A DNA stretch of 64,000 nucleotides, from assembly GCA_965219455.1 (NCBI GenBank), contig OZ244744.1:3840001-3904000 (forward strand), written 5' to 3'. Under the pieces are notes generated by a model. It was not told where the DNA came from, searched no databases, and saw only the letters and a program-made list of their open reading frames with translations. Positions 26,913 to 52,597 of the stretch are shown in pieces. The translations under genes and the position numbers were made by a program. How positions within the stretch are numbered: position 1 is the first letter of the stretch; each line of letters opens with the position of its first letter. The DNA is from Candidatus Latescibacterota bacterium. GTDB taxonomy: Bacteria; Latescibacterota; UBA2968; GCA-2709665.

Positions 26913-27121
26913 CGGGCGGTAGCCACGTCCCATCAAGTTTGAGGTCGCTCTCCGTGAGGGAGCGTGAATTGAAACTCGCACCTCTCGCGCAGTTCGAGAA
27001 AGTCGCCAACGACCCCGCGGAATACTCCCATCAGAACAAGGATTGAAACCGTAGCGCGGTCTCGCTGCCTGTCATGCTGCCGAGCCCGGTGAGAATCTTC
27101 CATCGGAACAAGGATTGAAAC
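26913..27121 (+). CRISPR. Array extension with foreign repeats: one 32-bp family B repeat (26944-26975) and two 37-bp family C repeats (27013-27049, 27085-27121)
   Basis: B=GTCGCTCTCCGTGAGGGAGCGTGAATTGAAAC; C=CCCGGTGAGAATCTTCCATCGGAACAAGGATTGAAAC; spacers 31, 37, 35 bp. Confidence 0.85.
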
Positions 27122-27178
27122 TCCACCACTCCGCGTCCCGCGCGGCCACACCCACCCCAGCCCAGGAGCCCGAACCCG

Positions 27179-28660
27179 ATGGGCGCGATGGAACGCCTCA
27201 CAGCAGACATCCAGGCGCTGCCGCTCGACATCGGGCGGATCATCGTCGGCGGGGTCCTGTTTGTCTACTTCCTCAACACGCTCAGGCAGGCGCCCGACTT
27301 CAGCGATCCCGACGGCTTGATCGACCACTGCCTGGTGTGCCGGCTCTTCCCTCCCACCCGCGTGAGCCTCTTTCAGCCGGGGATGCCGGGGGTGCTGTTC
27401 CGCGGCGTCTTCGTCTGCGCGTGCGGGGCGGCGCTCATGGTGGTCGCGGGCTTCCATCCGCGCGCAGCCGGAGCGTTCCTCTTCCTGTCGGCGTTGTCCG
27501 CCCTGCGCTGGAACGTGCTGGCCAGCTACCTCGACGACGCCATGATCCACATCTTCTGCCTGTGGATCGTGCTGCTGCCGGTGGGGAGTACGCTGAACGT
27601 GCCGGATCTGATCGCGGGGGGTTGGGGAAGCGCAACCACCGACACCTGGATCTCAGCGACCGTCCCCGGGGCCGCCCCCCGCGCCTTCATCGCCAACATG
27701 GCGCTCATCTATATCGTCGCCGGACTATACAAGTTCACAAGCCCGATGTGGCGCGACGGCTCCGCGATGCACTCCGCGCTCCGCATGCCAATCGCGCACG
27801 CGCCAGACTTCTGGACGTTGCGGTGGCGCACCCCGCTCCGTCTGGTAACCTGGGCCGCGCTGATCCTGGAGCCCCTCTTAGCGCTCATCTTCGTGCTGCC
27901 GCCAGGCTCGGCGCTCAAGTGGCTGCTGGTCGCGGGGGCCATCGTCTTCCACCTCGGGATCGCGTTTACGCTCAAGATCCCGTACTCCAACTCGGCGATG
28001 CTCGCCGCAATCCCGCTCGCCCTCGCGCCCGAGATCATGCAGGGCTGGCTGGGGCCGCCGCCGCTGGAGGGGGCTGTCGTGACGGCCGGCAATGCCGCCG
28101 CCGCTAACGACGGCCCCGGCCCCGCCGGCTGGATCGCCCTCACCCTCGTTGCGCTGATCGTGATCCAGGTCGTCTGGGAGGCCGTCAACACCGGTCGCCG
28201 GCTCCGCCCCCGCTATTCGTCGAGCGGCTGGGACAACCCGGTCCGCGCCCTCCTCTGGATGGCCGGCATCTTCCAGAGCTACCGCCTCTTCGACTGGGTC
28301 GACGAACGCAACCATCACGTGCGCTTCGAGGTCACGCGGGTGGGGCCGGGCACCCCCCTCAATCCCGACGCCATCTTCCCCCAGACCATGCGTCACCTCC
28401 TTCTCCAGTCGTACCTTGTCGGCAACATCTGGATGCGGATGAGCCCCGACCAACTCGAGCAGGTCCGCCGCTCGATCCTCATCCGGCACGCCCGCCGCTA
28501 CGCCCGCACGCACCCTGACGCGGGCACGATCGAAGCGGTCGCGATCGTGCAGCGGGTCACCGACGAGAACCTCGAGCTCACCCGCGGGGAGCGGCGGCCC
28601 ATGATGCGCTTCACCTGCCGGGGGGGCAGCGCCGTCATGCATCATCCACGAGAGGAATAG
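27179..28660 (+). CDS. HTTM-domain membrane protein
   Basis: Multiple TM helices, LIYIVAGLYKFTSPMWRDGSA, FHLGIA; visibly higher GC than the cas operon. Confidence 0.7.
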   Translation: MGAMERLTADIQALPLDIGRIIVGGVLFVYFLNTLRQAPDFSDPDGLIDHCLVCRLFPPTRVSLFQPGMPGVLFRGVFVCACGAALMVVAGFHPRAAGAFLFLSALSALRWNVLASYLDDAMIHIFCLWIVLLPVGSTLNVPDLIAGGWGSATTDTWISATVPGAAPRAFIANMALIYIVAGLYKFTSPMWRDGSAMHSALRMPIAHAPDFWTLRWRTPLRLVTWAALILEPLLALIFVLPPGSALKWLLVAGAIVFHLGIAFTLKIPYSNSAMLAAIPLALAPEIMQGWLGPPPLEGAVVTAGNAAAANDGPGPAGWIALTLVALIVIQVVWEAVNTGRRLRPRYSSSGWDNPVRALLWMAGIFQSYRLFDWVDERNHHVRFEVTRVGPGTPLNPDAIFPQTMRHLLLQSYLVGNIWMRMSPDQLEQVRRSILIRHARRYARTHPDAGTIEAVAIVQRVTDENLELTRGERRPMMRFTCRGGSAVMHHPREE

Positions 28661-28669
28661 GGGGCGGCC

Positions 28670-30568
28670 ATGTGCGGCATTGCAGCGATCCTGTCCCGCA
28701 ACGGGCCCGTCGACGCGGGAGCCCTCCGCCGCGCCACCGGGGCCTTGCGGCATCGTGGGCCGGACGCGGAGCGTACCTGGGTTTCTCCGAGCGGCAGGAT
28801 CGGGCTGGGTCACCGGCTCCTCGTGATCAACGACCCCGAGGGCCACCAGCCGATCGCGAGCGAGGACGGGCGGCTGCACATCGTCGTCAACGGCCAGTTC
28901 TACGACTTCGCGCGCATCCGTACGTCACTCGAAGCCCGGGGGCACCGTTTCCGCACCCGCTCCGACAGCGAGATCGCGCTGCACCTCTACGAGGACCACG
29001 GCGCAGCGTGCCTGGAGCACCTGCGCGGCCAGTTTGCCTTCGTGGTCTGGGACGAGGAGACCGGCAACCTCTTCGCGGCGCGCGACCGCTTCGGCCTCAA
29101 GCCGCTCTTCTACACCGAACACGACGGTGCGCTCTACCTCGCGTCCGAGGCGAAGGCACTCTTCGCGGCGGGGGTGCCCCGCGCGTGGGACACCCAGGGC
29201 GTGTATCACTGGCTGCTCGCCTGCCCGGATGAGCGGCGGTCGCTCTTCGACGGGATCCGGCAGGTGCCGCCCGGGCACTTGATGAGGGCCAGTAACGGAT
29301 CAGTGCGGCTGCAGGGCTACTGGGACCTGCCGGCGTCGCCGCCGGGGGGGCGAGATGCCCCCGACTTCCCCCGCGCCGTCGAGCACGCCCGCGAACTCAC
29401 CGAGGAGGCGATCCGGCTGCGCATGGTAGCCGGGGTCCCCGTCGGCTGCCTGATCAGCGGCGGCCTCGATTCCTCTTCCGTCCTGGCCGTGGCGGCCACC
29501 TGCACGGACCGCCCGGTCGCCGCCTTCACGGTCGGGTTCGAGCGGCGCGAATTCGACGAGAGCCCGGGGGCACGGGAAGCGGCCGCCGCCGCCAACGCCG
29601 ACCACACCGTCGTCACGCTCAGCGACGCCGACCTGGCCGATCACTTCGCCGACGCCGTGTGGCACGCCGAGACGCTTCAGTTCAACACCCACGGCGCGGC
29701 GCGCTACCTGCTGAGCCGGGGCGTGCGCGACGCAGGCTACCGCTCGGTCCTCGCAGGCGAGGGCGCCGACGAGGCCTTCTTCGGCTACGAGTTCCTGCTC
29801 GCGGCGGCTGGTGCATCCCGCGGCGGATTCGGTCCGCGCAAGCTGCTGCGCATCCTGTCGGGATTCCTGCGCTCCCCCCGGCGCCACCACCCTACCCTGG
29901 CCGCCGTCTCCCCCTGGCTCGCCCGCCTCGCCCTCCTCCTCCCGGCGGCCCCCTCGCTCTTTACGCGGCTCTCGGGTGGACTCGGCCTCATCCAGTCGGT
30001 CTGCTCACGCGACTTCCTGCACCGCTTCGACGGCTACGACCCCTACCGCACCTATTACCTCCGCTGCAAGGAGGCCGCCGCCATCTCCCGGCGCGAACCG
30101 GCCCGGCAGCTCCTCTACCTCTGGCTGCACTCGATCTTCGCCAACTACCACATGGCCGCCGACCGGCTCGACATGGCGCACGGCGTCGAAGTCCGCCTCC
30201 CCTTCCTCGACCACCACCTCTTCGAGCACCTGAACCGCCTCCCGCTCGCCCTCCTCACCGACCATCCCCGCGAAAAGCACCTCCTGCGCGAGGCCATGCG
30301 CCCCCACATCCCGGACTCGGTGTACGGGGCGGTGAAGCGACCGTTCATGGCGCCATCGGCGGTTGGGGTGGACGGGCCGCTGCACGATTTTCTGCAGGAC
30401 ACGTTGCGGGGGGAGGGGCTGCGGGCCGTGCCGTTCGTGGATGCGGCGGCGGTGGGGGGCGTGCTGGACGGGCTGCCGCAGGTGGGTGAGCGGGAGCGCG
30501 GGTCGGTGGATTCGCTGCTGTTGATGCTGGCTTCAGTGGCGGTGTTGCAGGAGCGGTGGGGGTTGTAA
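28670..30568 (+). CDS. asnB: Asparagine synthase (glutamine-hydrolysing) family amidotransferase
   Basis: MCGI, HRGPD, RDRFGLKPL, SGGLDSS, GEGADE, EVRLPFLD. Confidence 0.9.
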   Translation: MCGIAAILSRNGPVDAGALRRATGALRHRGPDAERTWVSPSGRIGLGHRLLVINDPEGHQPIASEDGRLHIVVNGQFYDFARIRTSLEARGHRFRTRSDSEIALHLYEDHGAACLEHLRGQFAFVVWDEETGNLFAARDRFGLKPLFYTEHDGALYLASEAKALFAAGVPRAWDTQGVYHWLLACPDERRSLFDGIRQVPPGHLMRASNGSVRLQGYWDLPASPPGGRDAPDFPRAVEHARELTEEAIRLRMVAGVPVGCLISGGLDSSSVLAVAATCTDRPVAAFTVGFERREFDESPGAREAAAAANADHTVVTLSDADLADHFADAVWHAETLQFNTHGAARYLLSRGVRDAGYRSVLAGEGADEAFFGYEFLLAAAGASRGGFGPRKLLRILSGFLRSPRRHHPTLAAVSPWLARLALLLPAAPSLFTRLSGGLGLIQSVCSRDFLHRFDGYDPYRTYYLRCKEAAAISRREPARQLLYLWLHSIFANYHMAADRLDMAHGVEVRLPFLDHHLFEHLNRLPLALLTDHPREKHLLREAMRPHIPDSVYGAVKRPFMAPSAVGVDGPLHDFLQDTLRGEGLRAVPFVDAAAVGGVLDGLPQVGERERGSVDSLLLMLASVAVLQERWGL

Positions 30569-30683
30569 GGGATCGCTTGGTGGGCCAAAATGTAAGACAG
30601 ACCTTACAGAATGTCGTGTTTGTTGTACATGTCGCTTGCGTCCGACGCTGGACGACTTAACATAAGCAGCTTATGTTATTGAC

Positions 30684-30875
30684 ATGGACAACACAATCCG
30701 AAGTTATCTCGCCGAAATCGGTCGGAGAGGCGGCAGGAAGAGTCGTCGCACTCTGGACCCGGAGACCGCCAGGGCCATGGTCCGCGTCCGCGAGGCCCGG
30801 CGGGCGTATCGCAAGTACAACGCCACATGTTTCTGGTCCTACCGCAAGGATCTGAGTATCGGCCTGACCGATGTG
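30684..30875 (+). pseudogene. Small basic protein truncated by a family C repeat
   Basis: MDNTIRSYLAEIGRRGGRKSRR...CFWSY runs into the repeat-encoded PGENLPSE. Confidence 0.5.
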
Positions 30876-30899
30876 CCTGGTGAGAATCTTCCATCAGAA
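30876..30899 (+). repeat. 5' 24 bp of a family C repeat, interrupted by an IS end
   Basis: CCTGGTGAGAATCTTCCATCAGAA followed directly by TGTCAA. Confidence 0.8.
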
Positions 30900-31703
30900 T
30901 GTCAATGATCGCCCATATGCGGCCAATGCGGGATCGGCCTAATCAGGCCACCTGGGATGCGATTGAGGTTTCGGACTTTCCGTCAACGATTCTACCTTCT
31001 GAGTGTCTCCCCGACATTCAGGAGGGAAGAACATGGCAAACCGGAGGTTCGAGATGTATGAGTATCGCCAGGTATTGGCGCGTATGCGGTTGGGCGAGTC
31101 GGATCGTGCGATCGCCCGTTCAGGGTTGATAGGACGCCAGAAGGGCAGCGCTTGTCTGTGCGCCTGCGCGCAACGCGCGGGCAGGCGCACAGGCAGGCGC
31201 TTCGTGAGGTGGCCGGCCGTGAGGGATGGCTGGAGGCTTCCAGCGTGATGCCCGATGATGCGGCGCTCGCGCAGGTTCTACAGCACCCTTCCTCGCGTCC
31301 TCAGTCGGCGGCGTCGGTTTTGCTCTACCAGGACAAGGTCACGGCCTGGTGGCGTCAGTGTATCCGAGGTACGGTCATCCACCAGGCGTTGGTGGACACC
31401 TGCGGCTATGCCAGCTCGTATTCTTCCATCCGGCGTTTTCTCCAGGGGCTCAAAGGCGCTCATCCCGATGTCACCACCGAGTTGGACTTCGATCCCGGCG
31501 ACGTGGCGCAGGTGGACTTTGGGCGTGGTCCAACCATAAAGGACGTCTTAACACACCAGTCCATCGCGACGTGGATCTTCGTGATGGTGCTGGCCTGGTC
31601 TCGCCACCAGTATGCCGAGATCGTACCGGATCAAAAGGTCGAGACGTGGCTTTGCTGCCATCGAAGCGCCTTCGAGTTCTTCGGCGAGCGCCGGCATTCT
31701 TGA
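30900..31703 (+). mobile_element. istA: IS21-family remnant (left end TGTCAA... plus frameshifted, truncated istA)
   Basis: MANRRFEMYEYRQVLARMRLGESDRAIAR at 31033; PGDVAQVDFG, FVMVLAWSRHQY, AFEFFG; no istB. Confidence 0.85.
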
Positions 31704-31943: not shown

Positions 31944-33275
31944 ATGATAGCAGCCGACCAGGAGACTGGTCCGACGCCAGTTGAACGAAGCGTGTCTATC
32001 GGCACCTGGAACATGGATCACTGGAAGCGGACCTCGCAGCAGCGCCAGGACGCATGGCGTTACCTTCAAACGGAGAACAAGGCTGACGTTATGCTGCTCC
32101 AGGAAAGCGTTGCTCCGTCTGACATCCCCCGCAACCGATTCGTACACCGCGAGATCGCTGGCCGGCGGCCCTGGGGCTCGTCGGTTGTGGCGTTCGCCGA
32201 TGACCTGGAAACAGAGGAGATCGATGCCGTGGGTACACGCTACGGCCCAACGAGGTTCAGTATGCTGGGAAGCCTTCCGGGTTCCGTGATTGTTGCTCGA
32301 ATCCACGTGCCTGAAGTGGGCCCAATCACCTGTGTGAGTGTGTATGGCGCGATGGATGACGGCTATGCGCAAACAAGGATGTTTCGTGTTATCGCCGACC
32401 TGATTCCGCTGTTTGACTCGGATGACGGCAGGCGCGTCATTCTGGGAGGCGACTTCAACGTTACAACTGCGGCAGGTCCGGATACGCTCGAACTGCCTCG
32501 ATACCGCGCCCTGTTCGTTGCCATTGAATCACTCGGGCTCGTCAATCTCGTTACGACGGCAAAGGATCGTCCAGACCCCATGCCGGGTTGTCCATGCGGC
32601 ACCGTCGACTGCCGCCACGTGCGAACGTTCGGCGACAATCCGGGCACACAGCTGGATTGGCTGTATGCCACGAAGGAACTCGCGCATCGGTGCACGCGGC
32701 TGCGAGTCGATCACAACGTCATGGGCACCCGGAGTGACCACGCGCCTCTCATTGCCGAGTTTAAAGTCCCCCCACTCAAGGGCGGCATGGTTGTCGATCC
32801 GGACTCATTTGTGCAGGAGTTGGGGGTCCGTGCCGGCTGCAAGTGTACTCGAATTGCCGAAGAACTGATTGCGTGGGCGCACCGGAAACACGTCGAACTC
32901 GAAGGATCGGGCCGCAGGGTCGCGTATTTCAATCGAATGCCGACGCGCAATACCGATCCGCCGGAGATCTGGTTCCAACTCGACAGATTGCCATTGGCAG
33001 ACGGTAAGGGATTGTTGCAGTGGACCTTCAGTATCAAGGCTGACGGCCGCGTGGTCGTCCAATTCCAATACATGGCCCCCGCATTCGATACAATGAATGC
33101 TCGCGAAGAACTATGGTCTGATTTGTGCCGGATTGAAGGCGTGACCTTGGACAAGCGTCTGAACGGGCGACCGAGCTTTCCGTTGCAAAACCTCGCGCAA
33201 TCCGAACGCCGCGAGCAGTTTCAACGGGTGTTTTCCAACATGATCGACAAGACGCTGCGCGATAAAGCGGATTGA
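31944..33275 (+). CDS. Endonuclease/exonuclease/phosphatase (EEP) protein with extra C-terminal domain
   Basis: TWNM, LLQE, GGDFN, QLDWL, SDHAP; stop codon lies inside a repeat 3' end (AGCGGATTGAAAC). Confidence 0.85.
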   Translation: MIAADQETGPTPVERSVSIGTWNMDHWKRTSQQRQDAWRYLQTENKADVMLLQESVAPSDIPRNRFVHREIAGRRPWGSSVVAFADDLETEEIDAVGTRYGPTRFSMLGSLPGSVIVARIHVPEVGPITCVSVYGAMDDGYAQTRMFRVIADLIPLFDSDDGRRVILGGDFNVTTAAGPDTLELPRYRALFVAIESLGLVNLVTTAKDRPDPMPGCPCGTVDCRHVRTFGDNPGTQLDWLYATKELAHRCTRLRVDHNVMGTRSDHAPLIAEFKVPPLKGGMVVDPDSFVQELGVRAGCKCTRIAEELIAWAHRKHVELEGSGRRVAYFNRMPTRNTDPPEIWFQLDRLPLADGKGLLQWTFSIKADGRVVVQFQYMAPAFDTMNAREELWSDLCRIEGVTLDKRLNGRPSFPLQNLAQSERREQFQRVFSNMIDKTLRDKAD

Positions 33276-33351
33276 AACTGCGTCTACGAGGGTTTGAATC
33301 TGACCTACAGCCCTTCCCGTGAGAATCTTCCATCAGAACAAGATTTGAAAC
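33266..33351 (+). CRISPR. Orphan repeat-spacer-repeat unit (family A 3' end, 36-bp spacer, family C repeat 33315-33351)
   Basis: AGCGGATTGAAAC 33266-33278; spacer 33279-33314; TCCCGTGAGAATCTTCCATCAGAACAAGATTTGAAAC. Confidence 0.75.
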
Positions 33352-33434
33352 GGCGCCGGCGGCAAAGCAGAGGTCGACGACGCCGTAAGCCTGCTGGCCG
33401 GGCGCCGCCCCGTCCACGAGAGGAGAGAGCGAGC

Positions 33435-34517: not shown

Positions 34518-34598
34518 CCGCGGATAGTGCGTCCCCGCGCCTTAACCGTACACGAGACGCACCCCACAGAACAGCAGTGCCTCGCGTGCGCTCCACAC

Positions 34599-34864: not shown

Positions 34865-34883
34865 AGGCTGGTGTCGCGCTGTT

Positions 34884-37981: not shown

Positions 37982-38082
37982 GCAGGCAGTGGTACGCCAT
38001 GGCCGGGGCTCACAGGAACTTCGCCCCCATCTTCGTCAGATACACGGCGCTTGGCGCAATCCTTCTAAGGTAACCTCAACCG

Positions 38083-38274: not shown

Positions 38275-38371
38275 ACTGGCTCAACTGCGGGCCTCGCATT
38301 CGTAGGCGTAAATGCGAAGTCTCGCCTCGTCAGCCCTGTATCCCGACGAATGGATTATAGGAGGTGAAGAA

Positions 38372-40520: not shown

Positions 40521-40522
40521 GA

Positions 40523-44500: not shown

Positions 44501-46269
44501 TTTTCGACCGGCAGATCGGTTCCGAAGAGGATGAGGTTGAATCGGATGACGACGAAGAGATCAAGGGGGGCCAAGTCGGCGACATGGAGAGTATCCTGTC
44601 GCTGTGCGAATCGAGGGCGATGGCGGGCGGTATGCTTCGCTGGCACTACCGTTCCAGGCACCCTTCCCTCATTGCCGTCTCGAACCACGAGTTCTATGAA
44701 AACGGGCTGGTCTGCCCGCCTAGCCCGGACAGGGCCGGCACGCAAACCGGTCTGAGTTTTGTCCACGTTGAAGGCATCTACGAGCGAGGCAAGAGGCGAA
44801 ACAACCCTCCCGAAGCGCAGGAGGTCGCCGAACAGGTGCTCACGCACGCCCGGGAACACCCCGACGAAACGCTAGGCGTGGTCGCTCTCTCGGTCGCTCA
44901 GCGAGACACAATTCGGAACAGGCTCGAATTCATGCGAGCCGAGTACCCGGAACTGGATGCCTTCTGCAAGGAAGGCAAGGACGATGCGTTCTTTGTCAAG
45001 AACCTCGAAAACGTGCAGGGCGACGAACGTGACGTCATATTCATTTCGATCGGATACGGGAAGGACGCCGGCGGATACATGTCGCAAAATTTCGGGCCGG
45101 TTTCCAGCGAAGGCGGGGACCGCCGGCTCAATGTGCTCTTTACGCGAGCCAGGAAGCGGTGTCGTGTGTTCTCTTCGATTCGGCACTCTGAAATAAGGGT
45201 CGACGCGACCAGGCAGGCTGGCCCGAGGGTCTTGAAACGGTACCTGAAGTTCGCGGAAACCGGAGAGTTGGATATTCCGGTGATCACCGGCCGGGGAATG
45301 GACAGTCCGTTCGAGGAAGCGGTCGCGAATGCGCTGCAGAGCCATGGTTACCGTGTTGAGGGGCAGGTCGGATCGTCGGGTTTCCGGATCGACCTCGCCG
45401 TTTACGATCCGGACGACGAGGGCCGGTTTCTTCTGGCGGTCGAATGCGATGGAGCACGGTACCACTCGTCCAGCTGGGCCCGTGAGCGTGACAGGCTGCG
45501 CCAGGTCGTTCTGGAACAGAAGGGCTGGACGTTCCACCGGATCTGGAGCACGGACTGGTTCTATGACCGGGATACGGAGTTGCGGAAGGTTCTGGACACT
45601 ATCGAACGAGCCAGGTCAAACAGAGACATCCACAATGAGCCCAGGGACCTTCCCAAAGCTACTGAAGTCAAACGCATGGTTCCGGTCGAGCCGGAGGCGC
45701 CGCAGGGACCGCAGTACGTTGAAGCGGACTTCCTGATTCCAGGTTGTGAAGCCGTGGAATTGCACGAGGCCGATACCGGTCTTATCGTCGGGTATGTCAC
45801 CCGCGTTGTGGAATCCGAAGGCCCCGTGCACGTAGACGAGGTGGGCCGGCGCCTGAGCCGACTGTGGGGATATCAGCGGGCCGGATCACGAATCCAGAAT
45901 GTCGTGAAGTATGCCGCGGACCGAGCCGTTCGGGGGAAACGCATCCGCCGCGCTGAGGGTGAGGCTGGTGGGTTTCTCGATGTCTGTCATCGAACCGGGA
46001 GGGTGCTCGTCCGGGACAGGAGCGACGTCAAATCACTAACTCTGCGCAACGTTGAAATGCTGTCCCTGGTGGAGATTGGGGAAGGTATCCGGCTGGCTGT
46101 GAAACGGAACATCGGAATCAGTCCCGTCGAATGTGCGAAAGAAGTTTCGCGAATGCTCGGCTACAAGTCGCTCCGAGCGGATCTTCGGAATCGCATTGAA
46201 AGGGTCGCAAAAAAGATGGTGGCGGAGGGAAACCTCCTGCTGTCAGGGGAAGAATTGCGACTTCCATAG
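41511..46269 (+). pseudogene. DUF4011-SF1 helicase-Vsr/REase-DUF3320 (Hhe-like defence protein), split by a +1 frameshift near 43728
   Basis: LLDVGKRNKLIN, QGPPGTGKSQTI, DEASQV, GDQKQLPP, ENVQGDERD, VECDGARYHS, RIWSTDW; removing A43728 joins the two ORFs. Confidence 0.8.
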
Positions 46270-46696
46270 ATCCGGATCGGCACGTTTCACCCGTTTCGAC
46301 AACCGTAAGGGGATGCGCCGTGATGCCGCCCTGGCCTTTCTGCCGTGCCAACTGTTCAGGCATGCGACCCATGGTTTGCCCCGGCAAATGCAACGACGGC
46401 GCTGGTGTCGACTGGTTGGATGTCCGCTTCCATCTGATCGCTGATCGTTGCCCGCGGATGATTTTATCGCACTCCGTCGCAGTCATTGCGACACCTTGAA
46501 TGTATATTCACCCTGTTGCGTGATCCGCATTGGAACGAACCGTAAGTTGTGCGGCGCGTGTCCGTTTTCGCCCTTGAACCCTTGCTTGAGCTCTTTCCGG
46601 ATCACTGGCTTAATGTCGCGGCCGGCAGCTTTGATCCGCTATCAACGGTCGATTGATCTACGTTCCGTATCAAAACCATAATCGGGATGCGCCGAA

Positions 46697-46990
46697 ATGT
46701 ACGTCTTCCTGGACAATATCACGTTTCTATACAGAGGCGCGCAGACGTCCGTCCTCAACGGGCTTACGCTCTTCGTGTGATAGCGGGAGATTGTCGGGAT
46801 AATCGGGTCTGCGGGGGTCGGCAAGACGACGCTGCTACGATACGTTGGCAAGCGCTCGGACCGGCGCGCCTTCATCCATGACCTGCACGCCCTGCGCAAG
46901 ATGCCGCAGCACCGAACGGTGATTTACGCCACGCGCGACGCCGGAGATGCCCTGGCGGTCTCAGACCGGATCGTGGTGCTGCAAGTCGGA
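46697..46990 (+). pseudogene. ABC ATPase remnant, copy 1
   Basis: MYVFLDNITF, GSAGVGKTTLL, DALAVSDRIVVL; internal stop and deletion; homologous to 50320-50445 and 52904-53075. Confidence 0.7.
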
Positions 46991-47049
46991 ACTCTATTGA
47001 TTGAGGCAACGATGGGTGAAGGTTTCGATATGCTGAAGAAGCGATACGC

Positions 47050-47086
47050 CCCGTTGAAAACCTTCCATCAGAACGTGGATTGAAAC
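47050..47086 (+). repeat. Solo family C repeat (with B-like 3' end)
   Basis: CCCGTTGAAAACCTTCCATCAGAACGTGGATTGAAAC. Confidence 0.8.
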
Positions 47087-47165
47087 GGCGCCGGCGGCGA
47101 AGCAGAGGTCGACTACACTGTACGACCGCTGACGGGGCGCCGCCCCGTCCACGAGAGGAGAGAGC

Positions 47166-48248
47166 ATGGCGCATCTGTTTGGACGCGACTACACGAAGGC
47201 GGAGCTGCTGCGGTTGGTCGGCGATATGAGCCAGCTCGCCGCCGTTCGCCGCGCCGAGCTGACCGAGGGCAACGAGCGCGGCGCCGGATTAATCGAGGTG
47301 AGCAACGCCTCCGGACTGAGCTTCTCGGTGCTGCCCGGACGGGCGCTGGACGTCGCCGCCGCCACCTACCAGGGGCGGTCGCTGTGTTTCCGCAGCGCCA
47401 CCGGCGACGTCGGACCGGCATTCTTCGAGCCCGCCGGTTACGGCTGGATGCGCAGTTTCTTCGGCGGCCTGCTGATCAGTTGCGGCCTGACCTTCGTCGG
47501 CCATCCCGAAACCGACCCGGAGGAGGAAGGCGAGGAACTGGGCCTGCACGGGCGGCTGTCCGCCATCCCGGCGCGCGAGGTGAGTGCCGGCGGAAGCTGG
47601 CATGGAGACCAATACCGCCTGCGCATCGCCGGCACCATGCGCGAAGCGGTGGCACTTGGCACGACGCTTGAGCTACGCCGCGAAATCACCACTACGCTGG
47701 GCGAGCGCCGCATCAGCATCCACGACCGCGTGGAGAACCTCGGCGGGTTGCGCTCGCCGTTGATGCTGCTGTACCACACCAATCCCGGCTTCCCCCTGCT
47801 CGACGAGGGTACCCGGTTCCTGGTCAACAGCCAGCTCAGTACCGAGTGGCTGCAGGACCGCCCGGTCGTTGCCGCAGTGTACGAGCGGGCGCGCGCCCCG
47901 GAGCCGGGCGCCGGCGACGATGTATACGTGCACCGGCCGGTACCGGACGCCAACGGCAACGTGACCGTTGCGTTGATCAACGACCGGCTTGCGTACGGCC
48001 TGCAGTGGCGCATGCCGGCTGCCGAGCTGCCGCTGGTCACCCAGTGGCAGCACTTCGCCGCCGGCGGCTACGTGACCGGCGTGGAGCCGGGCAACTGCTC
48101 GCCTCTCGGGCGCGCCTGGAACCGCAGGCACGACTTCCTGGAGTACCTGGAACCCGGCGCCACACGCGAGTTCCACCTGGAGATCACCGTACTCGACGGC
48201 GCCGCCGCCGTCGCCGCCGCCGAGCGCCGCGTCGCCAACCTGGCCTAA
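47166..48248 (+). CDS. DUF4432 / aldose 1-epimerase-like protein, copy 2
   Basis: Differs from copy 1 by about nine residues. Confidence 0.8.
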   Translation: MAHLFGRDYTKAELLRLVGDMSQLAAVRRAELTEGNERGAGLIEVSNASGLSFSVLPGRALDVAAATYQGRSLCFRSATGDVGPAFFEPAGYGWMRSFFGGLLISCGLTFVGHPETDPEEEGEELGLHGRLSAIPAREVSAGGSWHGDQYRLRIAGTMREAVALGTTLELRREITTTLGERRISIHDRVENLGGLRSPLMLLYHTNPGFPLLDEGTRFLVNSQLSTEWLQDRPVVAAVYERARAPEPGAGDDVYVHRPVPDANGNVTVALINDRLAYGLQWRMPAAELPLVTQWQHFAAGGYVTGVEPGNCSPLGRAWNRRHDFLEYLEPGATREFHLEITVLDGAAAVAAAERRVANLA

Positions 48249-48369
48249 CCGGGGACAGTGGGTCCCCGCGTCGATGTGCGCGCGCCTCCTCCTGAGCACG
48301 GATAGTCATCACCTTGCGCGTCTCTCGGAGCGTATGTGCCGACTGTCCATCGAAGGTGCCGTCAGTCGC

Positions 48370-48635: not shown

Positions 48636-48974
48636 GTGCCGAATTTTCCAGAATTAATCGAAAAGGCGCGGTGGCGTGAGGCGACGACATACCGCAACAG
48701 TTGGCCTCACGAATACGTGCTCGTAAAAGAGGATAAGCAGCAGACTTTACTTAAGGCCTTTTGCACTCGCATCAGAAACGGGGAGGGCGTCGAAGGCAGA
48801 TTCTTCGACAGGTCGTTCACGTATCTCTTCATTGGCGAGTTCAAGTATTGGACCTACACACCCTGCATGAAGATTGACCTTTATTCGACCGAACAGGATT
48901 TCGTCCTGAACCGGGCTCGACTATACCGTGACAGACGGGATTTCATCGTTAGGCGTGGAGATAAGGGAGTATGA
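48636..48974 (+). CDS. Hypothetical protein (WPHEY motif)
   Basis: RBS GAGG, overlaps next gene by 4 bp. Confidence 0.65.
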   Translation: MPNFPELIEKARWREATTYRNSWPHEYVLVKEDKQQTLLKAFCTRIRNGEGVEGRFFDRSFTYLFIGEFKYWTYTPCMKIDLYSTEQDFVLNRARLYRDRRDFIVRRGDKGV

Positions 48975-50050
48975 ACAAGAGTCTGTTGGCGCACCTGGCA
49001 GGACGGCTTGCTCCGGCACCGGAAACCATCGCGACGGAATCACTACGATATATCCTCAACGCATCGCCGGGAGTGTGCCAGGCGTTAGTTGATAGGGTGG
49101 CAAGCCGCGCCGGGTTCGAGCCATTCAAGGTCGAGTCTATTGAAAGCGAGACTGAGGTCGAAACAGGCGGCCGCCCGGATATCACGATATATGACGCGGC
49201 CTCTCTGCCCCGTACACATGTCGAGAATAAGTTCTGGGCAGGACTGACGGCGTCGCAGCCGGTTGAATACCTCAACTCCTTCCCCGAAGAACCCGAATCC
49301 GCGTTACTTTTCGTTGTGCCCGAAGCCCGCATCGTCAGCATCTGGCAGGAGTTGAAGGAACGGTGCGTTAAACAGGAGCTTAAGGTCGGAACGGAGACGA
49401 CAAAAGACGAAATGAAGCGGGTTCCCATTGGTTCGGGCCGTAACATGCTTATCTCAAGTTGGGGATCCATTTTGGATACGTTGCAAAGAACTGCAAGTGA
49501 AATTGGAGACACTTCTGAAATGCAGGATATCGTTCAGCTTCGCGGACTCTCGGATCGAATGGATGTAGAAGCCCTTCCGCCCTTGCGCGAGGATGAAACC
49601 ACCGACGTGAATGTACCCCGCCGCATGATTAACTATGCTGATTTATCCGAAGGAATCGCACAAGTACTTAAGAACAAGGGAATTGCGAGCTTTAAGGGCG
49701 TGAAACCTACGAATCGGTATGAAAAGAAGGGACGCTACTTTTCTGTAGGGAAAGGTTTCAAGTTTGGCGTGTGGTTGGGCGTTGACATATTCGCGTGGCG
49801 CGATTGGGGTATAACTCCCATATGGCTTGAAGTACACAAAACGGAATGGGGCGGGCTCGTCGGACACTGGTCAAGCGTGAAAAGGATGCGCCAGGACCAT
49901 CGAGAGTATGCAAATCATCTGTGTTTTCCGATTCGGCTGGCATGTACCGTCGACAAGGATCGAGTCATCGAAGATGCGGTTATTCAAATGCGCGAAATTA
50001 TCGACCTATTCGAACGGGCGACGCTGGAGAATCCGCCGCCCGTCGGATAA
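48971..50050 (+). CDS. PD-(D/E)XK nuclease superfamily protein
   Basis: GRPDITI...HVENKFWA..QPVEY. Confidence 0.7.
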   Translation: MNKSLLAHLAGRLAPAPETIATESLRYILNASPGVCQALVDRVASRAGFEPFKVESIESETEVETGGRPDITIYDAASLPRTHVENKFWAGLTASQPVEYLNSFPEEPESALLFVVPEARIVSIWQELKERCVKQELKVGTETTKDEMKRVPIGSGRNMLISSWGSILDTLQRTASEIGDTSEMQDIVQLRGLSDRMDVEALPPLREDETTDVNVPRRMINYADLSEGIAQVLKNKGIASFKGVKPTNRYEKKGRYFSVGKGFKFGVWLGVDIFAWRDWGITPIWLEVHKTEWGGLVGHWSSVKRMRQDHREYANHLCFPIRLACTVDKDRVIEDAVIQMREIIDLFERATLENPPPVG

Positions 50051-50319
50051 CCGTGTGCAGGCATTTCGCACGTCCGTTTCAATGAGCAGGGGCGACAGGC
50101 CGGTCGCTCCTGCCGAACGCCGTTTCGGTCACGTCATCGCTTAGCCATAACGCAGCCCACAGCCTGCTGTCCCCCACGATTTGGGCAGCCACAGGGGTTG
50201 TGCCCCTCGAGATACTCCGGATGCGCTGACGTCAAAAGATCGCCTTTTTAGTTTTTGGCTGACTGCTGTCGGCTGAAGCCTGCTTTCTTTGTCGCGGTAA
50301 TTGCGACAACAGGTGTTTA

Positions 50320-50445
50320 TATTTATCCGCGTGATCTCTTCGCACGACGTACAAAACTGCAGCGCCGTACGGTGACGTACGCCGCGCGAGACGTCAGCGA
50401 CGCCCTGGCGGTCGCGGACCGGATCGCGGTGCTGCAAGGCGGTTA
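50320..50445 (+). pseudogene. ABC ATPase remnant, copy 2 (C-terminal piece)
   Basis: RTVTYAARDVSDALAVADRIAVLQGG. Confidence 0.6.
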
Positions 50446-50481
50446 TTGTCCAGAGCGGGACAGTGGTGGTGGTCCGGAGCG

Positions 50482-50518
50482 CCCGCAAATGTAGATCCAC
50501 CAGAACAAGGATTGAAAC
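50482..50518 (+). repeat. Solo family C-like repeat
   Basis: CCCGCAAATGTAGATCCACCAGAACAAGGATTGAAAC. Confidence 0.75.
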
Positions 50519-50806
50519 CCGAAGCCCGGAAGTTGCCGGGTGGCGAGCGGTCCATTCAGGCTTTTCGCGAAAACCTGCCGGGGGACCACGTTGGCGATAT
50601 CCGGTGGGACTCTATGGGAGAGCTGAACGATGACTATCGATATGCCCAACAAACCGAACAAGATGACCGACACCTTCACCGGCCGGGCCTGGCACGAGGA
50701 CGGCACGCCGTTCGCACCTGTTGACTACAATGAGTCCGGACTGCGTGTCCCCACCCTGTCCCAGTTGGCCCTGTGGGCCAGGGCCGACCGTGAGCACGCT
50801 GCGGAG

Positions 50807-50843
50807 CCCGGTGAGAATCTCCCATCAGAAAAAGGATTGAAAC
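50807..50843 (+). repeat. Solo family C repeat
   Basis: CCCGGTGAGAATCTCCCATCAGAAAAAGGATTGAAAC. Confidence 0.85.
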
Positions 50844-51109: not shown

Positions 51110-51661
51110 ATGCCCAACGGAGGATCTGACTGTTGCGGAACCTGCTGGTTCAATAGAACGAACCGGGGCGAGCGCGACTGGCAGCGGCACGCAGGCGAGA
51201 ACATACCGCCCTATTGCGAGATCAGGGACATCGCGATAGAGGATCCATTCTACACCTATTGTGCGAACCATCCACGTCGCCGGCCCGATCGCGATCGCAT
51301 CCCCATCGGACCGGTGATGCGCCATGGCGGCTGGGAACAGGAACGGCGCGTGCAAGCCGGTCGACCCGACGAGTGGGTGTCCTGGGAAAACCCGCGTTAC
51401 GTCTGGAGACCCTCACCGGATTCGGAGGAGATTCGCCAACACCTGCTGAATTTGCTCGAGAGCGTATTCGAGCACATGGCCAGAGACCGATATCCTTTGG
51501 GCACAGGTCTGGGGGAGACGATCATCCGGCAATTCGGTGAATTTCGAGAGCAACGGGCGGTCAGGTATCTCGAATGGATACGCGAGAATCTTAGGGACTC
51601 TCTGGATTTCATGGCAGACGCTGCGAGCGAGGCGCTGGCCAGGATCCGAGGGGACGAATAA
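51110..51661 (+). CDS. Hypothetical Cys-rich protein (DCCGTCWFN, YCANHP) with helical C-terminus
   Basis: GGAGG RBS; clustered cysteines suggest metal binding. Confidence 0.65.
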   Translation: MPNGGSDCCGTCWFNRTNRGERDWQRHAGENIPPYCEIRDIAIEDPFYTYCANHPRRRPDRDRIPIGPVMRHGGWEQERRVQAGRPDEWVSWENPRYVWRPSPDSEEIRQHLLNLLESVFEHMARDRYPLGTGLGETIIRQFGEFREQRAVRYLEWIRENLRDSLDFMADAASEALARIRGDE

Positions 51662-51672
51662 GAGCGCCGCGG

Positions 51673-51709
51673 CCCGGTGAGAATCTTCCATCAAAACAAG
51701 GGTTCAAAT
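51673..51709 (+). repeat. Solo degenerate family C repeat
   Basis: CCCGGTGAGAATCTTCCATCAAAACAAGGGTTCAAAT, between two genes. Confidence 0.8.
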
Positions 51710-51736
51710 TGGAATGAGAAATGAGGAGGGGTTTGG

Positions 51737-52597
51737 ATGATTAAGGTGGTGAGCTGGAACATCGATAAACAGGTTAAGCCGTGGGGCGAACTGGTGCGGA
51801 TGGCGAAGGACAAAAAGGCCGACCTGGCGCTTCTGCAGGAAGCGGGAAGTCCACCCGGAGACCTGGTACATCTGCTCGACTACGAGGACGCCGTATTATG
51901 GAACCGGCACTTGTACGACCGCTGGCCATTGGTCGTGAAGCTGTCCGATCAAATCAAAGTAGAGCCTTACGTGCAGGTGCCGCCGATCAGCGAACTTGGG
52001 AAAGATGATATTGGCGTGAGCGGTATCGGTACCATCGCCGCAGCGAAGGTGATCCCGGTCGACAGCAAGGAAGAAGCATTCGTCGCTATTTCTATGTACG
52101 GGCGATGGCTGAAGCCTCATCCGTCTACCAATAGCAAATGGATCTACGCTGATGCTTCGGCACATCGAATCATCTCGGACCTGTCGGCTTTCATTGGTCA
52201 CACCGACCCGTCCAAACACAGGATTCTGGCGGCGGGCGATCTGAATATGTTCTACGGGGCGACCGGGACGAAGCTGTCACTTCCGGAGCGTGAGCGCACG
52301 GTCTGGAATCGTATGGAGGCGCTCGGGCTGGAATTCCTGGGACCGCAGGCTCCTCACGGTCGGGAAGCGGGAACAGCGCCGGACGACGTGCCGTGCGACA
52401 CGAAAAATGTGCCGACGTACTACAAGAAATACAAGAAAGGAGATGGGCCGGAAGCGGCGGCGAATCAACTGGACTACGCATTCGCGTCGCGAGGCTTCCA
52501 CAAGAGGGTGTCGGTGCGTGCGATGAACGAGATCGATGAATGGGGACCAAGCGACCACTGTCGACTGATCATCGAGGTGGAGACCAATGCCGATTGA
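51737..52597 (+). CDS. EEP family nuclease/phosphatase, second
   Basis: VVSWNI, LLQEA, AGDLN, QLDYAF, SDHC. Confidence 0.85.
   Translation: MIKVVSWNIDKQVKPWGELVRMAKDKKADLALLQEAGSPPGDLVHLLDYEDAVLWNRHLYDRWPLVVKLSDQIKVEPYVQVPPISELGKDDIGVSGIGTIAAAKVIPVDSKEEAFVAISMYGRWLKPHPSTNSKWIYADASAHRIISDLSAFIGHTDPSKHRILAAGDLNMFYGATGTKLSLPERERTVWNRMEALGLEFLGPQAPHGREAGTAPDDVPCDTKNVPTYYKKYKKGDGPEAAANQLDYAFASRGFHKRVSVRAMNEIDEWGPSDHCRLIIEVETNAD

What the first reader, a model, noticed from the sequence alone, without database searches (positions are those of the whole stretch)
26913..52597. Integron-like gene cassette array delimited by CRISPR repeats
Seen: downstream of a normal array, 37-bp family C repeats occur at 27013, 27085, 30876 (truncated), 33315, 34599, 47050, 50482, 50807 and 51673, all on the + strand. 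Several are separated by 0.3-3.8 kb blocks instead of ~36-bp spacers: HTTM+AsnB; IS21+EEP; DUF4432; DUF4432+WPHEY+PD-(D/E)XK; gene fragments; a Cys-rich gene. Another EEP gene follows the last repeat. Every credible gene from cas5 to 52.6 kb is co-oriented with the repeats. GC rises abruptly at some repeat 3' ends (27122, 33352, 47087). No integrase or attC site is visible. Inference: the repeats act as capture or recombination sites for gene-sized DNA (Cas1-Cas2 integration of long fragments, or recombination at the shared ATTGAAAC end). They may also act as RNA processing sites that cut a long transcript into per-cassette mRNAs. Much of the cargo is defence-type.
Basis: partly seen in the sequence, partly recalled or inferred. 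Interest (0 to 1): 0.92.

Follow-up and report, generated by a model that had tools for sequence, protein, structure and literature searches.

The report
Genes sitting between CRISPR repeats
Downstream of a normal CRISPR array, copies of an older CRISPR repeat are interspersed with whole genes, some of them foreign DNA joined exactly at a repeat end, and the same layout recurs in related genomes, so these repeats seem to serve as junction points for gene-sized DNA.

Summary
Nine co-oriented copies of a 37-nt "C" repeat lie at the stated coordinates. In the closed 5.84-Mb genome the family occurs only here.

The C repeat is a genuine CRISPR repeat: relatives carry arrays of 38-142 copies. Thirteen further loci from 12 relatives show the same dispersed, gene-separated layout.

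- Of 72 dispersed repeats, 25 have an ORF of at least 50 aa starting 0-5 nt after the repeat.
- A 58-aa gene family exactly fills the spacer position. Its flanking repeats are far better conserved than its synonymous sites.
- Two junctions could be traced to donors. A 70%-GC block acquired by horizontal transfer starts 0-1 nt after a repeat and ends at a stop codon. The DUF4432 cassette carries the last 47 codons of a donor's neighbouring gene.
- There is no integrase, attC site, transposase set or terminal inverted repeats.
- Not every block is bounded by repeats, and not all cargo is defensive.

Best reading: repeat-bounded gene cassettes are created and shuffled at CRISPR repeat borders. 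The enzyme is unknown. Capture by Cas1-Cas2 is possible but not shown. An assembly chimera is unlikely.

The parts
17689..25818 (+). Type I-C cas operon: cas5, cas8c, cas7, cas3, cas4, cas1, cas2. This is the only Cas1 in the genome.
   Evidence: Pfam hits. Single PF01867 hit in the genome.
25999..26912 (+). Regular array of 13 identical 37-nt A repeats of the hairpin type
   Evidence: Predicted fold -20.1 kcal/mol, z -3.4.
26945..26976 (+). B repeat, a different hairpin repeat with the same ATTGAAAC end
   Evidence: Predicted fold -11.1 kcal/mol.
27013..27121 (+). Two C repeats (27013-49 and 27085-121) separated by a 35-nt spacer
27122..30568 (+). Foreign 70%-GC block: 57-nt donor 5' UTR, a 493-aa gene (27179-28660) and AsnB (28670-30568)
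   Evidence: GC profile. AsnB is 88-92% identical to proteins of other genomes but at most 34% identical in 24 relatives. Homology to donor-like locus L050 starts 0-1 nt after the repeat and ends at the AsnB stop. A contig of run X5 bridges 26883-28773.
30569..30896 (+). 307-nt segment found only in this genome, with a 74-aa ORF (30684-30908) that reads into a C repeat truncated at 30896
30897..31703 (+). IS fragment (rve domain) that cuts the C repeat
   Evidence: Similar to an IS inside an array gap in G003.
31944..33278 (+). EEP nuclease/phosphatase gene (443 aa). Its last codons and stop lie in a repeat 3' remnant GCGGATTGAAAC (33267-78).
   Evidence: The motif is kept in the G002 and G008 orthologues.
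33315..33351 (+). C repeat
33352..34598 (+). DUF4432 cassette, copy 1: remnant of a donor FMN-dependent dehydrogenase 3' end, then DUF4432 (33435-34517)
   Evidence: 97% identical to G013 up to the end of the next C repeat. FMN_dh remnant shown.
34599..34864 (+). Mixed mini-array: C (34599-635), B-like (34672-701), A (34736-72), and A with a 16-nt insert (34810-64), followed by a T-run
35144..46269 (+). Four blocks with no repeat between them: Ig-like 945-aa gene; Nmad3 + ParA-like + 192-aa gene; PDC-S37/Hhe-like helicase-nuclease split into two ORFs
   Evidence: Each block matches different relatives at 75-92%.
46685..47049 (+). ABC-ATPase gene fragment whose reading frame ends inside the next C repeat
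   Evidence: (D5, D10)
47050..47086 (+). C repeat
47087..48270 (+). DUF4432 cassette, copy 2 (gene 47166-48248). The duplication begins at the repeat.
   Evidence: D2 98%, D8 86%
48636..50050 (+). Two genes found only in this genome (112 and 359 aa), no family hit
50201..50518 (+). Copy of the ABC gene's upstream region and C-terminal fragment, then a C repeat (50482-518)
   Evidence: (D10, D16, D17)
50642..50806 (+). Member of the small 'WHxDGTP' gene family. Here it lies 123 nt after the previous repeat and is fused in frame through the next repeat.
50807..50843 (+). C repeat
51110..51661 (+). Cys-rich 183-aa gene, conserved in 8 of the 14 loci mapped. It ends 11 nt before the next repeat.
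51673..51709 (+). C repeat with a degenerate 3' end
51737..52597 (+). EEP gene (286 aa), 27 nt after the repeat. The same repeat+gene unit is seen in G016.
52904..53437 (+). ABC-ATPase-like ORF at the right flank, the source of the internal fragments

Best explanation
The trailer side of the CRISPR array in this lineage is a long-lived platform in which genes occupy the place of spacers. Records of homologous loci are titled MAGs of Candidatus Latescibacterota or Gemmatimonadota.

Proposed mechanism:
1. Gene-sized DNA becomes joined at a repeat border, typically flush with the 3' (ATTGAAAC) end of a repeat.
2. The resulting repeat-bounded units are then duplicated, truncated, reordered and exchanged between genomes by recombination between the many co-oriented repeats. 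These repeats are among the few sequences shared by diverged relatives.
3. The repeats next to genes are kept by selection or by conversion against array repeats. They probably supply expression signals: read-through from the array promoter, and an AAGGA Shine-Dalgarno-like motif 7-12 nt before start codons that lie 0-5 nt after the repeat. They may also serve as an RNA processing site.

Shown: the anatomy, its recurrence, the flush junctions, the foreign origin of two blocks and the conservation of the repeats.
Inferred: recombination at repeats as the shuffling mechanism, and the role in expression.
Unknown: the enzyme that makes the first junction.
For: 1. Locus-specific and co-oriented. 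8 of 8 core hits are on +, and there are 0 elsewhere in 5.84 Mb.

2. The C repeat is a true CRISPR repeat. Arrays of 38-142 copies occur in relatives, and 23 of 41 genomes carry the repeat.

3. Recurrence. Dispersed C repeats with 0.2-13 kb gaps occur in 13 further loci of 12 relatives, downstream of an active array where one is present. A recurring gene pool appears in different orders: the small gene, EEP, DUF4432, the Cys-rich 183-aa gene, Nmad3 and ParA-like+192 aa. Singletons are mixed in.

4. Geometry.
- 25 of 72 dispersed repeats have an ORF of at least 50 aa starting 0-5 nt after the repeat. These belong to about 4-5 independent gene families: the small family; ZacA of an Azaca system (ATG 1 nt after a degenerate repeat in G008, G010a and G014); a PEMT-like gene (GTG at 0 nt in G002 and G014); and a diverged-repeat group.
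- In at least 3 small-gene units the unit is 4 nt + ORF + 1 nt between repeats.
- Alignment A2 shows similarity from the 5' repeat to the 3' repeat and unrelated flanks.

5. Constraint. Over 18 small genes and 153 pairs, pS is 0.66 and pN 0.31, and the median dN/dS is 0.25 over the 101 pairs with finite dS. The p-distance of the upstream repeats is only 0.25 over 37 nt and 0.18 over the 3' 26 nt (136 pairs of the 17 genes with an assigned repeat).

6. Donor-resolved junctions.
- The 70%-GC block has close homologues outside the lineage (88-92%) but at most 34% identity in 24 relatives.
- Homology to a donor-like contig begins 0-1 nt after the repeat and ends at the stop codon of the second gene.
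- 0 of 8 donor-like loci carry GATTGAAAC.
- The DUF4432 cassette begins with the last 47 codons of an FMN-dependent dehydrogenase gene (E 2.5e-8).
- That cassette abuts an A repeat in G013 and C repeats in G000 and G011.

7. Ongoing rearrangement. In G011 the unit small gene-C repeat-DUF4432 occurs twice. One copy is cut at about codon 195 by the first repeat of a perfect 76-repeat array.

8. No integrase, transposase set or terminal inverted repeats.
Against: - Repeats do not bound every block: 34865-47049 holds four blocks and no repeat.
- The right end of the foreign block is not flush with a repeat; 307 nt intervene.
- The block 48290-50150 sits inside the 3' region of DUF4432 copy 2, not at a repeat.
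- In G014 a 12.7-kb stretch with ORFs called on the minus strand lies between C repeats.
- Most of the 25 flush starts belong to one gene family and to related genomes, so they are not independent.
- My background control for this count was lost with the script machine. The only rough control is that about 16% of ordinary spacers (15 of 93 in three arrays) have an ATG at 0-5 nt. I took this by hand, and it is without the ORF criterion.
- Repeat conservation could reflect gene conversion rather than function.
- No expression or processing data exist. The RNA run gave contigs only.
- The small family also occurs without CRISPR repeats in Chloroflexota records, so it is not intrinsically tied to repeats.
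Confidence: 0.5

Rival explanations
1. Cas1-Cas2(-Cas4) capture. The adaptation integrase, or abortive half-site integration that leaves a nick at the repeat-spacer border, joins gene-sized DNA at the border. Cargo would then be a giant spacer.
For: - The foreign block begins 0-1 nt after the repeat 3' end, the position where a new spacer abuts a repeat. I saw no useful microhomology between the repeat end and the donor in alignment A3.
- Captured DNA starts at arbitrary donor positions, once in a 5' UTR and once inside a neighbouring gene. This is as expected for an end-joining or integrase event rather than exchange of ready-made cassettes.
- Small-gene units fill the spacer position exactly.
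- In G011 a cargo unit lies between a 21-repeat array and a 76-repeat array.
- Cargo lies on the older, trailer side of active arrays.
Against: - Integration should leave identical repeats flush on both sides. The foreign block is flush only on the left.
- The DUF4432 unit has an A repeat on one side and a C repeat on the other in G013.
- From my own knowledge, not tested here: known Cas1-Cas2 complexes measure prespacer length.
- There are only two donor-resolved junctions, and one of them is resolved only to within about 10 nt.
- No Ku was found for end-joining repair.
Confidence: 0.2
2. Passive graveyard. An old C array was broken up by random insertions, IS elements and replacement of the cas module. 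The dispersed repeats would be functionless relics in an ordinary defence island.
For: - An IS fragment cuts one C repeat in the middle, and IS elements split arrays in G003.
- Different cas subtypes occupy the same site in relatives: I-C here, I-B-like in G003 and I-MYXAN in G001.
- Several repeats are degenerate.
- 12.2 kb of cargo carries no repeats.
- Many genes are fragments: the ABC pieces, a split helicase and a fused small gene.
Against: - Repeats next to small genes are much better conserved than synonymous sites (0.18-0.25 against 0.66).
- 25 of 72 start codons lie within 5 nt of the repeat end.
- The foreign-DNA junction is flush with the repeat.
- The same repeat+gene units are kept across genomes at 33-90% protein identity.
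- All repeats keep one orientation in every locus.
Confidence: 0.15
3. Regulatory ectopic repeats. The solo repeats would give crRNA-like RNAs, or binding sites for Cas5 or Cascade on the mRNA. Adjacent genes, some of them defensive, would be repressed while the CRISPR effector is intact and released when it is inhibited (CreTA/CreR/crlRNA logic).
For: - Ectopic repeats with regulatory roles are known in type I loci (PMC10120712, passages read; CreTA and CreR papers, listing and abstracts only).
- The repeats lie directly at translation starts.
- The repeats are conserved.
- A repeat-like 17-mer overlaps the cas2 start in G000 and G013, and a C-like repeat abuts the cas5 ATG in G013.
Against: - Known crlRNA and CreA units have a pseudo-spacer of about 30-40 nt that matches a promoter. 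Here the inter-repeat DNA is 0.2-13 kb of coding sequence.
- No complementarity search was done.
- C repeats are predicted to be unstructured, and the resident system uses a hairpin repeat.
- This model does not explain the flush foreign junctions or the shuffling.
Confidence: 0.1
4. Assembly chimera at shared repeats.
For: GC jumps occur at repeats. The genome comes from a community in which a close relative of the foreign block is also present at other depths (run X1, variant contig).
Against: - The genome is a single 5.84-Mb contig.
- A 1,891-nt contig of another run (X5) spans 26883-28773 with 6 differences, from the A/B/C repeats into the high-GC block. That run could be a sister sample.
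- The C repeats differ from each other by up to 39% over the 49-nt family window, which is poor substrate for mis-joins.
- The same architecture is seen in the separate assemblies of the 12 relatives mapped in detail, plus G009 and G011.
Confidence: 0.02

Closest known systems
Integrons (sedentary chromosomal integrons as stores of defence cassettes)
   Same: - Co-oriented, compact, mostly promoterless-looking ORFs separated by a short repeated site.
- Heterogeneous cargo that includes defence systems.
- Different cassette content and order in relatives.
   Different: - No IntI and no attI or attC; the repeated site is a CRISPR repeat.
- The site lies immediately 5' of start codons.
- Not every gene block is bounded by a repeat.
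- The enzyme is unknown.
Ectopic or solitary CRISPR repeats: crRNA-like regulatory RNAs, CreTA, CreR (PMC10120712, passages read; others seen in listing and abstracts only)
   Same: Repeats outside regular arrays within CRISPR-cas loci, some degenerate and conserved, next to genes.
   Different: - The known elements flank a pseudo-spacer of spacer size that targets a promoter.
- Here the repeats flank 0.2-13 kb of coding DNA, including horizontally acquired genes.
- No target complementarity was examined.
Tn7-like transposons that target CRISPR arrays in cyanobacteria (PMC11837452, abstract and outline read)
   Same: Gene-sized DNA inserted at a fixed position relative to CRISPR repeats.
   Different: - Those elements carry tns genes and transposon ends and insert inside spacers.
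- Here no Tns-type genes appear among the Pfam hits and there are no terminal inverted repeats.
- The junction here is at the repeat 3' end.
Recombination between CRISPR arrays and spacer deletion or duplication by repeat-repeat recombination (PMC4524480, search listing only; otherwise my own knowledge)
   Same: Repeats act as substrates for homologous recombination that reorders, duplicates and deletes the units between them.
   Different: The known cases move spacers. Here the units are genes and operons.
Defence islands next to CRISPR-cas loci
   Same: Azaca, PDC-S37/Hhe, PDC-S11, a GajB-like helicase, Nmad3 and nucleases cluster beside cas genes.
   Different: Islands are not normally interleaved with co-oriented CRISPR repeats placed at gene starts. 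Part of the cargo here is not defensive.

Membership tests
Integron | IntI tyrosine recombinase next to the cassette array | tested here: not met
   PF00589 has 5 hits in the genome and none in the window. The nearest is about 96 kb beyond the window's end.
Integron | attC sites: imperfect inverted repeats that fold, located at the 3' end of each cassette | tested here: not met
   The repeated element is a 37-nt CRISPR repeat. C copies are predicted to be unstructured (z about +1).
Integron | Compact co-oriented cassettes whose content and order differ between relatives | tested here: met
   Exceptions: 12.2 kb without repeats in the window, and a stretch with minus-strand ORFs in G014.
Canonical CRISPR array | Identical repeats separated by unique spacers of about 35 nt, next to cas genes | tested here: met
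   Met for 25999-26912 (13 A repeats) beside a I-C operon. For the C copies this is met only in relatives, which carry arrays of 38-142.
Canonical CRISPR array | Spacer-sized inter-repeat distance throughout | tested here: not met
   Start-to-start spacings of the C copies in the window are 72, 3791, 2439, 1284, 12451, 3432, 325 and 866 nt.
crRNA-like regulatory mini-array (CreA / CreR / crlRNA) | One or two degenerate repeats around a spacer-sized pseudo-spacer | tested here: not met
   Inter-repeat DNA is 182 nt to 13 kb and codes for proteins. The 35-nt units at 27013-27121 and 34599-34864 do have array geometry.
crRNA-like regulatory mini-array (CreA / CreR / crlRNA) | Partial complementarity of the pseudo-spacer to a promoter with a PAM | not tested
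   No search for targets of the few short spacers was made.
Array-targeting Tn7-like transposon | tnsA/B/C and a TnsD-like gene, transposon ends, target-site duplication | tested here: not met
   The only transposase-like hit is a weak rve fragment, below the Pfam cut-off. No terminal inverted repeats frame the blocks.
Cas1-Cas2 integration product ('giant spacer') | Insert flush with a repeat on both sides, and the flanking repeats identical at the time of insertion | tested here: inconclusive
   The left junction of the foreign block is flush but the right one is not. Small-gene units are flush on both sides, but they are old and their flanking repeats differ.
Cas1-Cas2 integration product ('giant spacer') | Integrase accepts kb-sized DNA | not testable with these tools
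   Needs biochemistry.
Defence island | Several recognised defence genes clustered | tested here: met
   Window: I-C CRISPR-Cas and a split PDC-S37/Hhe-like gene. Relatives: ZacABC, PDC-S11 and a GajB-like helicase.

The most novel reading that the evidence does not exclude
In this lineage CRISPR arrays double as a gene-capture and expression platform. Gene-sized foreign DNA is joined at the repeat-spacer border, by the adaptation integrase or through the nicks it leaves. It thereby becomes a repeat-bounded cassette. The cassette is transcribed with the array and translated or processed from the repeat. It can move between any genomes that share the repeat. This would be an integron-like system built from CRISPR parts, without a tyrosine recombinase.
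Probability: 0.3. Interest if true: 0.95.

Novelty: new variant of a known kind. Interest (0 to 1): 0.8.

Why it matters
CRISPR repeats are known as sites for spacer-sized insertions and, more recently, as regulatory solo repeats. This case adds several things:
- a lineage-wide layout with whole genes and operons, including Azaca and other defence systems, in spacer position;
- start codons flush with the repeat;
- repeats conserved well beyond neutral expectation;
- a recent horizontal acquisition that begins at the first base after a repeat.

If repeats serve as capture or exchange sites, that would be a new route of horizontal gene transfer. It would also help explain how defence islands grow next to CRISPR loci. 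It would further suggest that the integrase or repeat borders can handle long DNA, which is of practical interest for DNA-insertion tools. Even under the conservative reading (recombination at repeats plus selection for expression), this is a clear natural example of CRISPR repeats being reused as gene-expression and gene-shuffling elements. It comes with concrete constructs to test: the repeat-small gene-repeat unit and the repeat-ZacA junction.

Tried and rejected
- Assembly chimera: rejected as the main explanation (and recurrence in other assemblies).

- 'Joints' that link 26.4-27.1 kb to 34.6-34.7 kb have only 21-24 nt on the shorter side and other letters in between. They are array repeats of other strains carrying other spacers. 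They are not evidence for deletion variants, and I did not use them.

- RNA run X18 gave only short contigs on 27176-27680, 33807-34556 and 40815-45361. That shows presence in an RNA library only, with no strand, ends or cleavage, so it is not used as evidence of expression.

- Small protein function: no result.
  - No Pfam hit; its only successful scan was PADLOC, with 0 hits. Searches failed for a coordinate error in another query, and the small proteins were not resent.
  - No PDB fold match (pLDDT 79).
  - Nothing in the Atlas.
  - No phage or plasmid tblastn hit.
  - The long proteins among the 73 library hits match only positions about 6-39 of the profile, in several stretches each. I take them as repeat-motif noise (my judgement).

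- Cas6 as the processing enzyme of C repeats: PF01881 was not found in 6 of 6 genomes. Only this one Cas6 family was searched, so I make no claim.

- NHEJ capture: Ku (PF02735) was not found in G000.

- Pre-insertion state of the foreign block: the 307-nt segment 30569-30875 was found in 0 of 21 other family genomes, apart from one 25-nt match.

- Nmad3 'flush' with an A-like repeat in G001 was an artefact of ORF extension. Its real start has its own Shine-Dalgarno sequence.

- Rfam: no family hit at 25000-54000.

- Literature: four searches gave no paper describing genes in spacer position or repeat-bounded gene cassettes. Supplements were not seen. Subscription journals are not covered.

- The statistical background for 'ORF start within 0-5 nt' could not be computed because the script machine was lost.

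Full report
**What is there**

The window is G000:C1:3840001-3904000 of a single-contig genome of 5,844,228 bp with 58% GC.

A type I-C operon (cas5, cas8c, cas7, cas3, cas4, cas1, cas2; 17689-25818) is followed by 13 identical 37-nt A repeats (25999-26912). After these come one B repeat and two C repeats with normal 35-nt spacers. Seven more C copies follow at 30876 (cut at its 21st base by an IS fragment), 33315, 34599, 47050, 50482, 50807 and 51673.

A 26-nt C core with up to 6 mismatches occurs 8 times on the + strand and never on the - strand in the whole genome, and all hits are in this locus. So the refuting outcome 'scattered genome-wide in random orientation' did not occur.

The A and B repeats fold into hairpins (-20.1 and -11.1 kcal/mol). 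The C repeats do not (z about +1). All three share the GGATTGAAAC end.

**Cargo in the window**
- A 493-aa gene without family, plus AsnB.
- An rve fragment.
- EEP (443 aa).
- DUF4432, twice.
- An Ig-like 945-aa protein.
- Nmad3.
- A ParA-like ATPase plus a 192-aa gene.
- A PDC-S37/Hhe-like helicase-nuclease split into two ORFs.
- Two genes without family.
- A decayed small gene.
- A Cys-rich 183-aa gene.
- EEP (286 aa).

**The C repeat is a real CRISPR repeat, and the layout recurs**

The C core is found in 23 of 41 genomes of the order sample, including 12 of 14 other genomes of the same genus. Regular arrays of 38-142 copies occur in several of them.

In G003 such an array lies next to a type I-B-like module (Cas7/Csh2, Cas5b, Cas3, Cas1, Cas2, Cas4). 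G001 has a I-MYXAN module at the same site. No Cas6 of family PF01881 was found in 6 of 6 genomes searched.

I fetched 13 further loci from 12 relatives and mapped them. Everywhere the C repeats are co-oriented. Where an active array is present they lie downstream of it. They are separated by 0.2-13 kb blocks.

The blocks draw on a recurring pool: the small gene, EEP, DUF4432, the Cys-rich 183-aa gene, Nmad3 and ParA-like+192 aa. They appear in different orders and are mixed with genome-specific genes. These include a complete Azaca system (ZacA/B/C), PDC-S11, a GajB-like helicase, a UDG-like gene, DUF4126, an S51 peptidase, an ADP-ribosylglycohydrolase, methyltransferases, SRAP, a PQQ propeller, a periplasmic binding protein and an MFS-HEAT protein.

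Between the window and its relatives, blocks match different genomes at very different identities (75-97%). Several block ends coincide with repeat ends, at 33276-80, 34636, 50844 and 51672. Others do not.

**Geometry**

I counted a repeat as dispersed if the gap to the next repeat exceeds 60 nt, with repeats called at up to 8 mismatches in 26 nt. At 8 mismatches, about one chance hit is expected over the data by my estimate. Of 72 such repeats, 25 have an ORF of at least 50 aa whose start codon lies 0-5 nt after the repeat.

Most belong to one family of 58-67-aa proteins (consensus ...WHPDGTPY..DY..AG.PVPT..QL..WAE; alignment A1). In at least 3 copies the ORF fills the inter-repeat space (4 nt, ORF, 1 nt). 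Independent further cases are:
- ZacA, with its ATG 1 nt after a degenerate repeat in three genomes;
- a PEMT-like gene, with GTG at 0 nt in two genomes;
- a group behind a diverged repeat variant.

Aligned units are similar from the 5' repeat to the 3' repeat, and their flanks are unrelated unless the neighbouring gene is the same.

The planned background control failed when the script machine was lost. So the enrichment is stated without a formal test. Relatedness among the genomes inflates the count.

**The small gene family**

It is present in 12 of 14 genomes of the genus, 1 of 2 of a sister genus and 0 of 31 of the neighbouring family, even though that family has large C arrays. The listed matches that I checked against the repeat coordinates lie in the CRISPR loci.

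It is under purifying selection. Over 18 sequences and 153 pairs, pN is 0.31 and pS is 0.66. The median dN/dS is 0.25 over the 101 pairs with finite dS. Two frameshifted copies were left out. For the 17 genes with an assigned upstream repeat (136 pairs), the repeats differ by only 0.25 per site over 37 nt, or 0.18 over the 3' 26 nt.

So the repeats are kept, either by selection or by conversion against array repeats.

The family is rare (73 hits at E<=1e-3 among 1.84 billion representatives, many of them spurious). It has no family, fold or phage/plasmid match. In Chloroflexota records it occurs as part of ordinary genes without CRISPR repeats.

**Two junctions traced to donors**

(i) The block 27122-30568 has 70% GC.
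- Its AsnB is 88-92% identical to proteins of other genomes. Four of the named ones are called Gemmatimonadetes/ota by their source, and such names are unreliable.
- In 24 relatives the best match is at most 34% identical.
- Eight donor-like metagenome loci carry the same gene pair, and none has GATTGAAAC.
- Alignment with the closest (82% at protein level) shows homology starting 0-1 nt after the C repeat, in the donor's 5' UTR, and ending at the AsnB stop codon.
- A 307-nt segment found only in this genome follows, and then a truncated C repeat.

(ii) The DUF4432 cassette.
- In G013, the DNA directly after the last A repeat of the active array encodes the last 47 residues of an FMN-dependent dehydrogenase (PF01070 positions 312-349 of 350, E 2.5e-8), followed by DUF4432.
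- The same remnant follows C repeats in G011 (complete) and in both window copies (with an internal deletion).

Cargo was therefore cut out of ordinary donor contexts at arbitrary points and ended up flush with a repeat end. The same cassette can sit behind either repeat type.

**Ongoing rearrangement**

G011 reads, in order:
1. an A array of 21 repeats;
2. a small gene;
3. a C repeat;
4. the FMN_dh remnant and DUF4432, cut at about codon 195 by the first repeat of a perfect 76-repeat C array;
5. a frameshifted small gene;
6. a C repeat;
7. the FMN_dh remnant and DUF4432 again.

In the window:
- DUF4432 with its upstream repeat is duplicated (98% over 300 nt).
- Pieces of the right-flank ABC gene and its upstream region recur before the C repeats at 47050 and 50482.
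- The EEP-443 gene ends in a repeat remnant that its orthologues keep.

**What it is not**
- No tyrosine recombinase lies in the window.
- There are no Tns-type genes and no terminal inverted repeats.
- There is no Rfam family.
- It is unlikely to be an assembly artefact. The genome is a single contig. The architecture recurs in other assemblies. A contig of another run bridges the repeats and the high-GC block (26883-28773, 6 differences), although that run may be a sister sample.

**Interpretation**

The data fit a platform in which DNA is joined at repeat borders and the resulting units are shuffled by recombination between repeats. The repeat is retained because it serves expression.
- AAGGA in the repeat lies 7-12 nt before start codons placed 0-5 nt after it (read from the sequence; its function is inferred).
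- Transcription could come from the array leader (inferred from co-orientation only).
- Processing at the repeat is possible but untested.

The first junction could be made by the adaptation integrase or follow from its nicks. The flush left junction without evident microhomology speaks for this. The non-flush right end and the mixed flanking repeats speak against a simple integration product. It could also arise by illegitimate recombination followed by selection.

A purely passive graveyard does not explain the repeat conservation, the start-codon geometry or the flush foreign junction.

A regulatory role like that of CreA, CreR or crlRNAs is not excluded for some copies. Examples are the repeat-like 17-mer at the cas2 start and a C-like repeat abutting the cas5 ATG in G013.

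**Literature**

Four full-text searches found no description of genes in spacer position. The nearest items are:
- array-targeting Tn7-like transposons (PMC11837452, abstract and outline read);
- CRISPR repeat-like regulatory elements (PMC10120712, passages read);
- CreTA and CreR papers (listing and abstracts only);
- recombination in array evolution (PMC4524480, listing only).

**Verdict**

The integron analogy is apt for the anatomy but not for membership. The capture mechanism is open. Interest 0.8.

Noticed in passing
window 41511-46269 (overlap 43741-43841): The PDC-S37/Hhe-like helicase-nuclease is split into two overlapping ORFs here, but it is one 1586-aa ORF in G016. Contigs of runs X3 and X5 lack one base at 43728, so this is either a true frameshift of this strain or an assembly error.
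   Followed up: partly
window 25521-25537; G013 locus (L024): A 17-nt match to the A-repeat 3' end (GGAGAGCGGATTGAAAC) overlaps the ribosome-binding site and start of cas2 in G000 and G013, but not in G010b or G014.
   Followed up: partly
G013 locus, upstream of cas5 (region coordinates 2362-2398): A C-like repeat ends exactly at the ATG of cas5, the first gene of the effector operon. G000 has no repeat there.
   Followed up: no
window 34810-34864; L009 9563-9635: A-type repeats with a palindromic insertion in the hairpin loop occur at the end of mini-arrays in both G000 and G001.
   Followed up: no
window 46450-47049, 50201-50481, 52753-53437: There are three copies of the upstream region and parts of an ABC-ATPase-like gene, each with a TGTCGC..GCGACA palindrome. 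Two of the copies end in a C repeat.
   Followed up: partly
window 16816, 50090, 52669, 54959 and 11769, 13095, 52732: Short palindromic REP-like elements (GGGCGACCGGCCGGTCGCCCCTACA; GGCAACCACAAGGGTTGCCCCTAC) are scattered in intergenic DNA.
   Followed up: no
window 13218-13604 vs 17108-17493: About 390 nt is duplicated at 77-83% identity, 3.9 kb apart, upstream of the WYL regulator gene and of cas5.
   Followed up: no
window 14625-15593: A WYL/WCX/HTH regulator lies upstream of the cas operon. It is conserved at the left flank of the locus in G002, G007, G008 and G010.
   Followed up: no
L029/L030 (G011): A perfect 76-repeat C array has no recognisable leader. Its first repeat is joined to the middle of a DUF4432 gene, and an A array of 21 repeats lies upstream.
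   Followed up: partly
window 30684-30908: A 74-aa basic ORF (..GRRGGRKSRR..) with a palindromic promoter-like sequence upstream reads in frame into the truncated C repeat. It has no family hit and no homologue in 21 other genomes of the family.
   Followed up: partly
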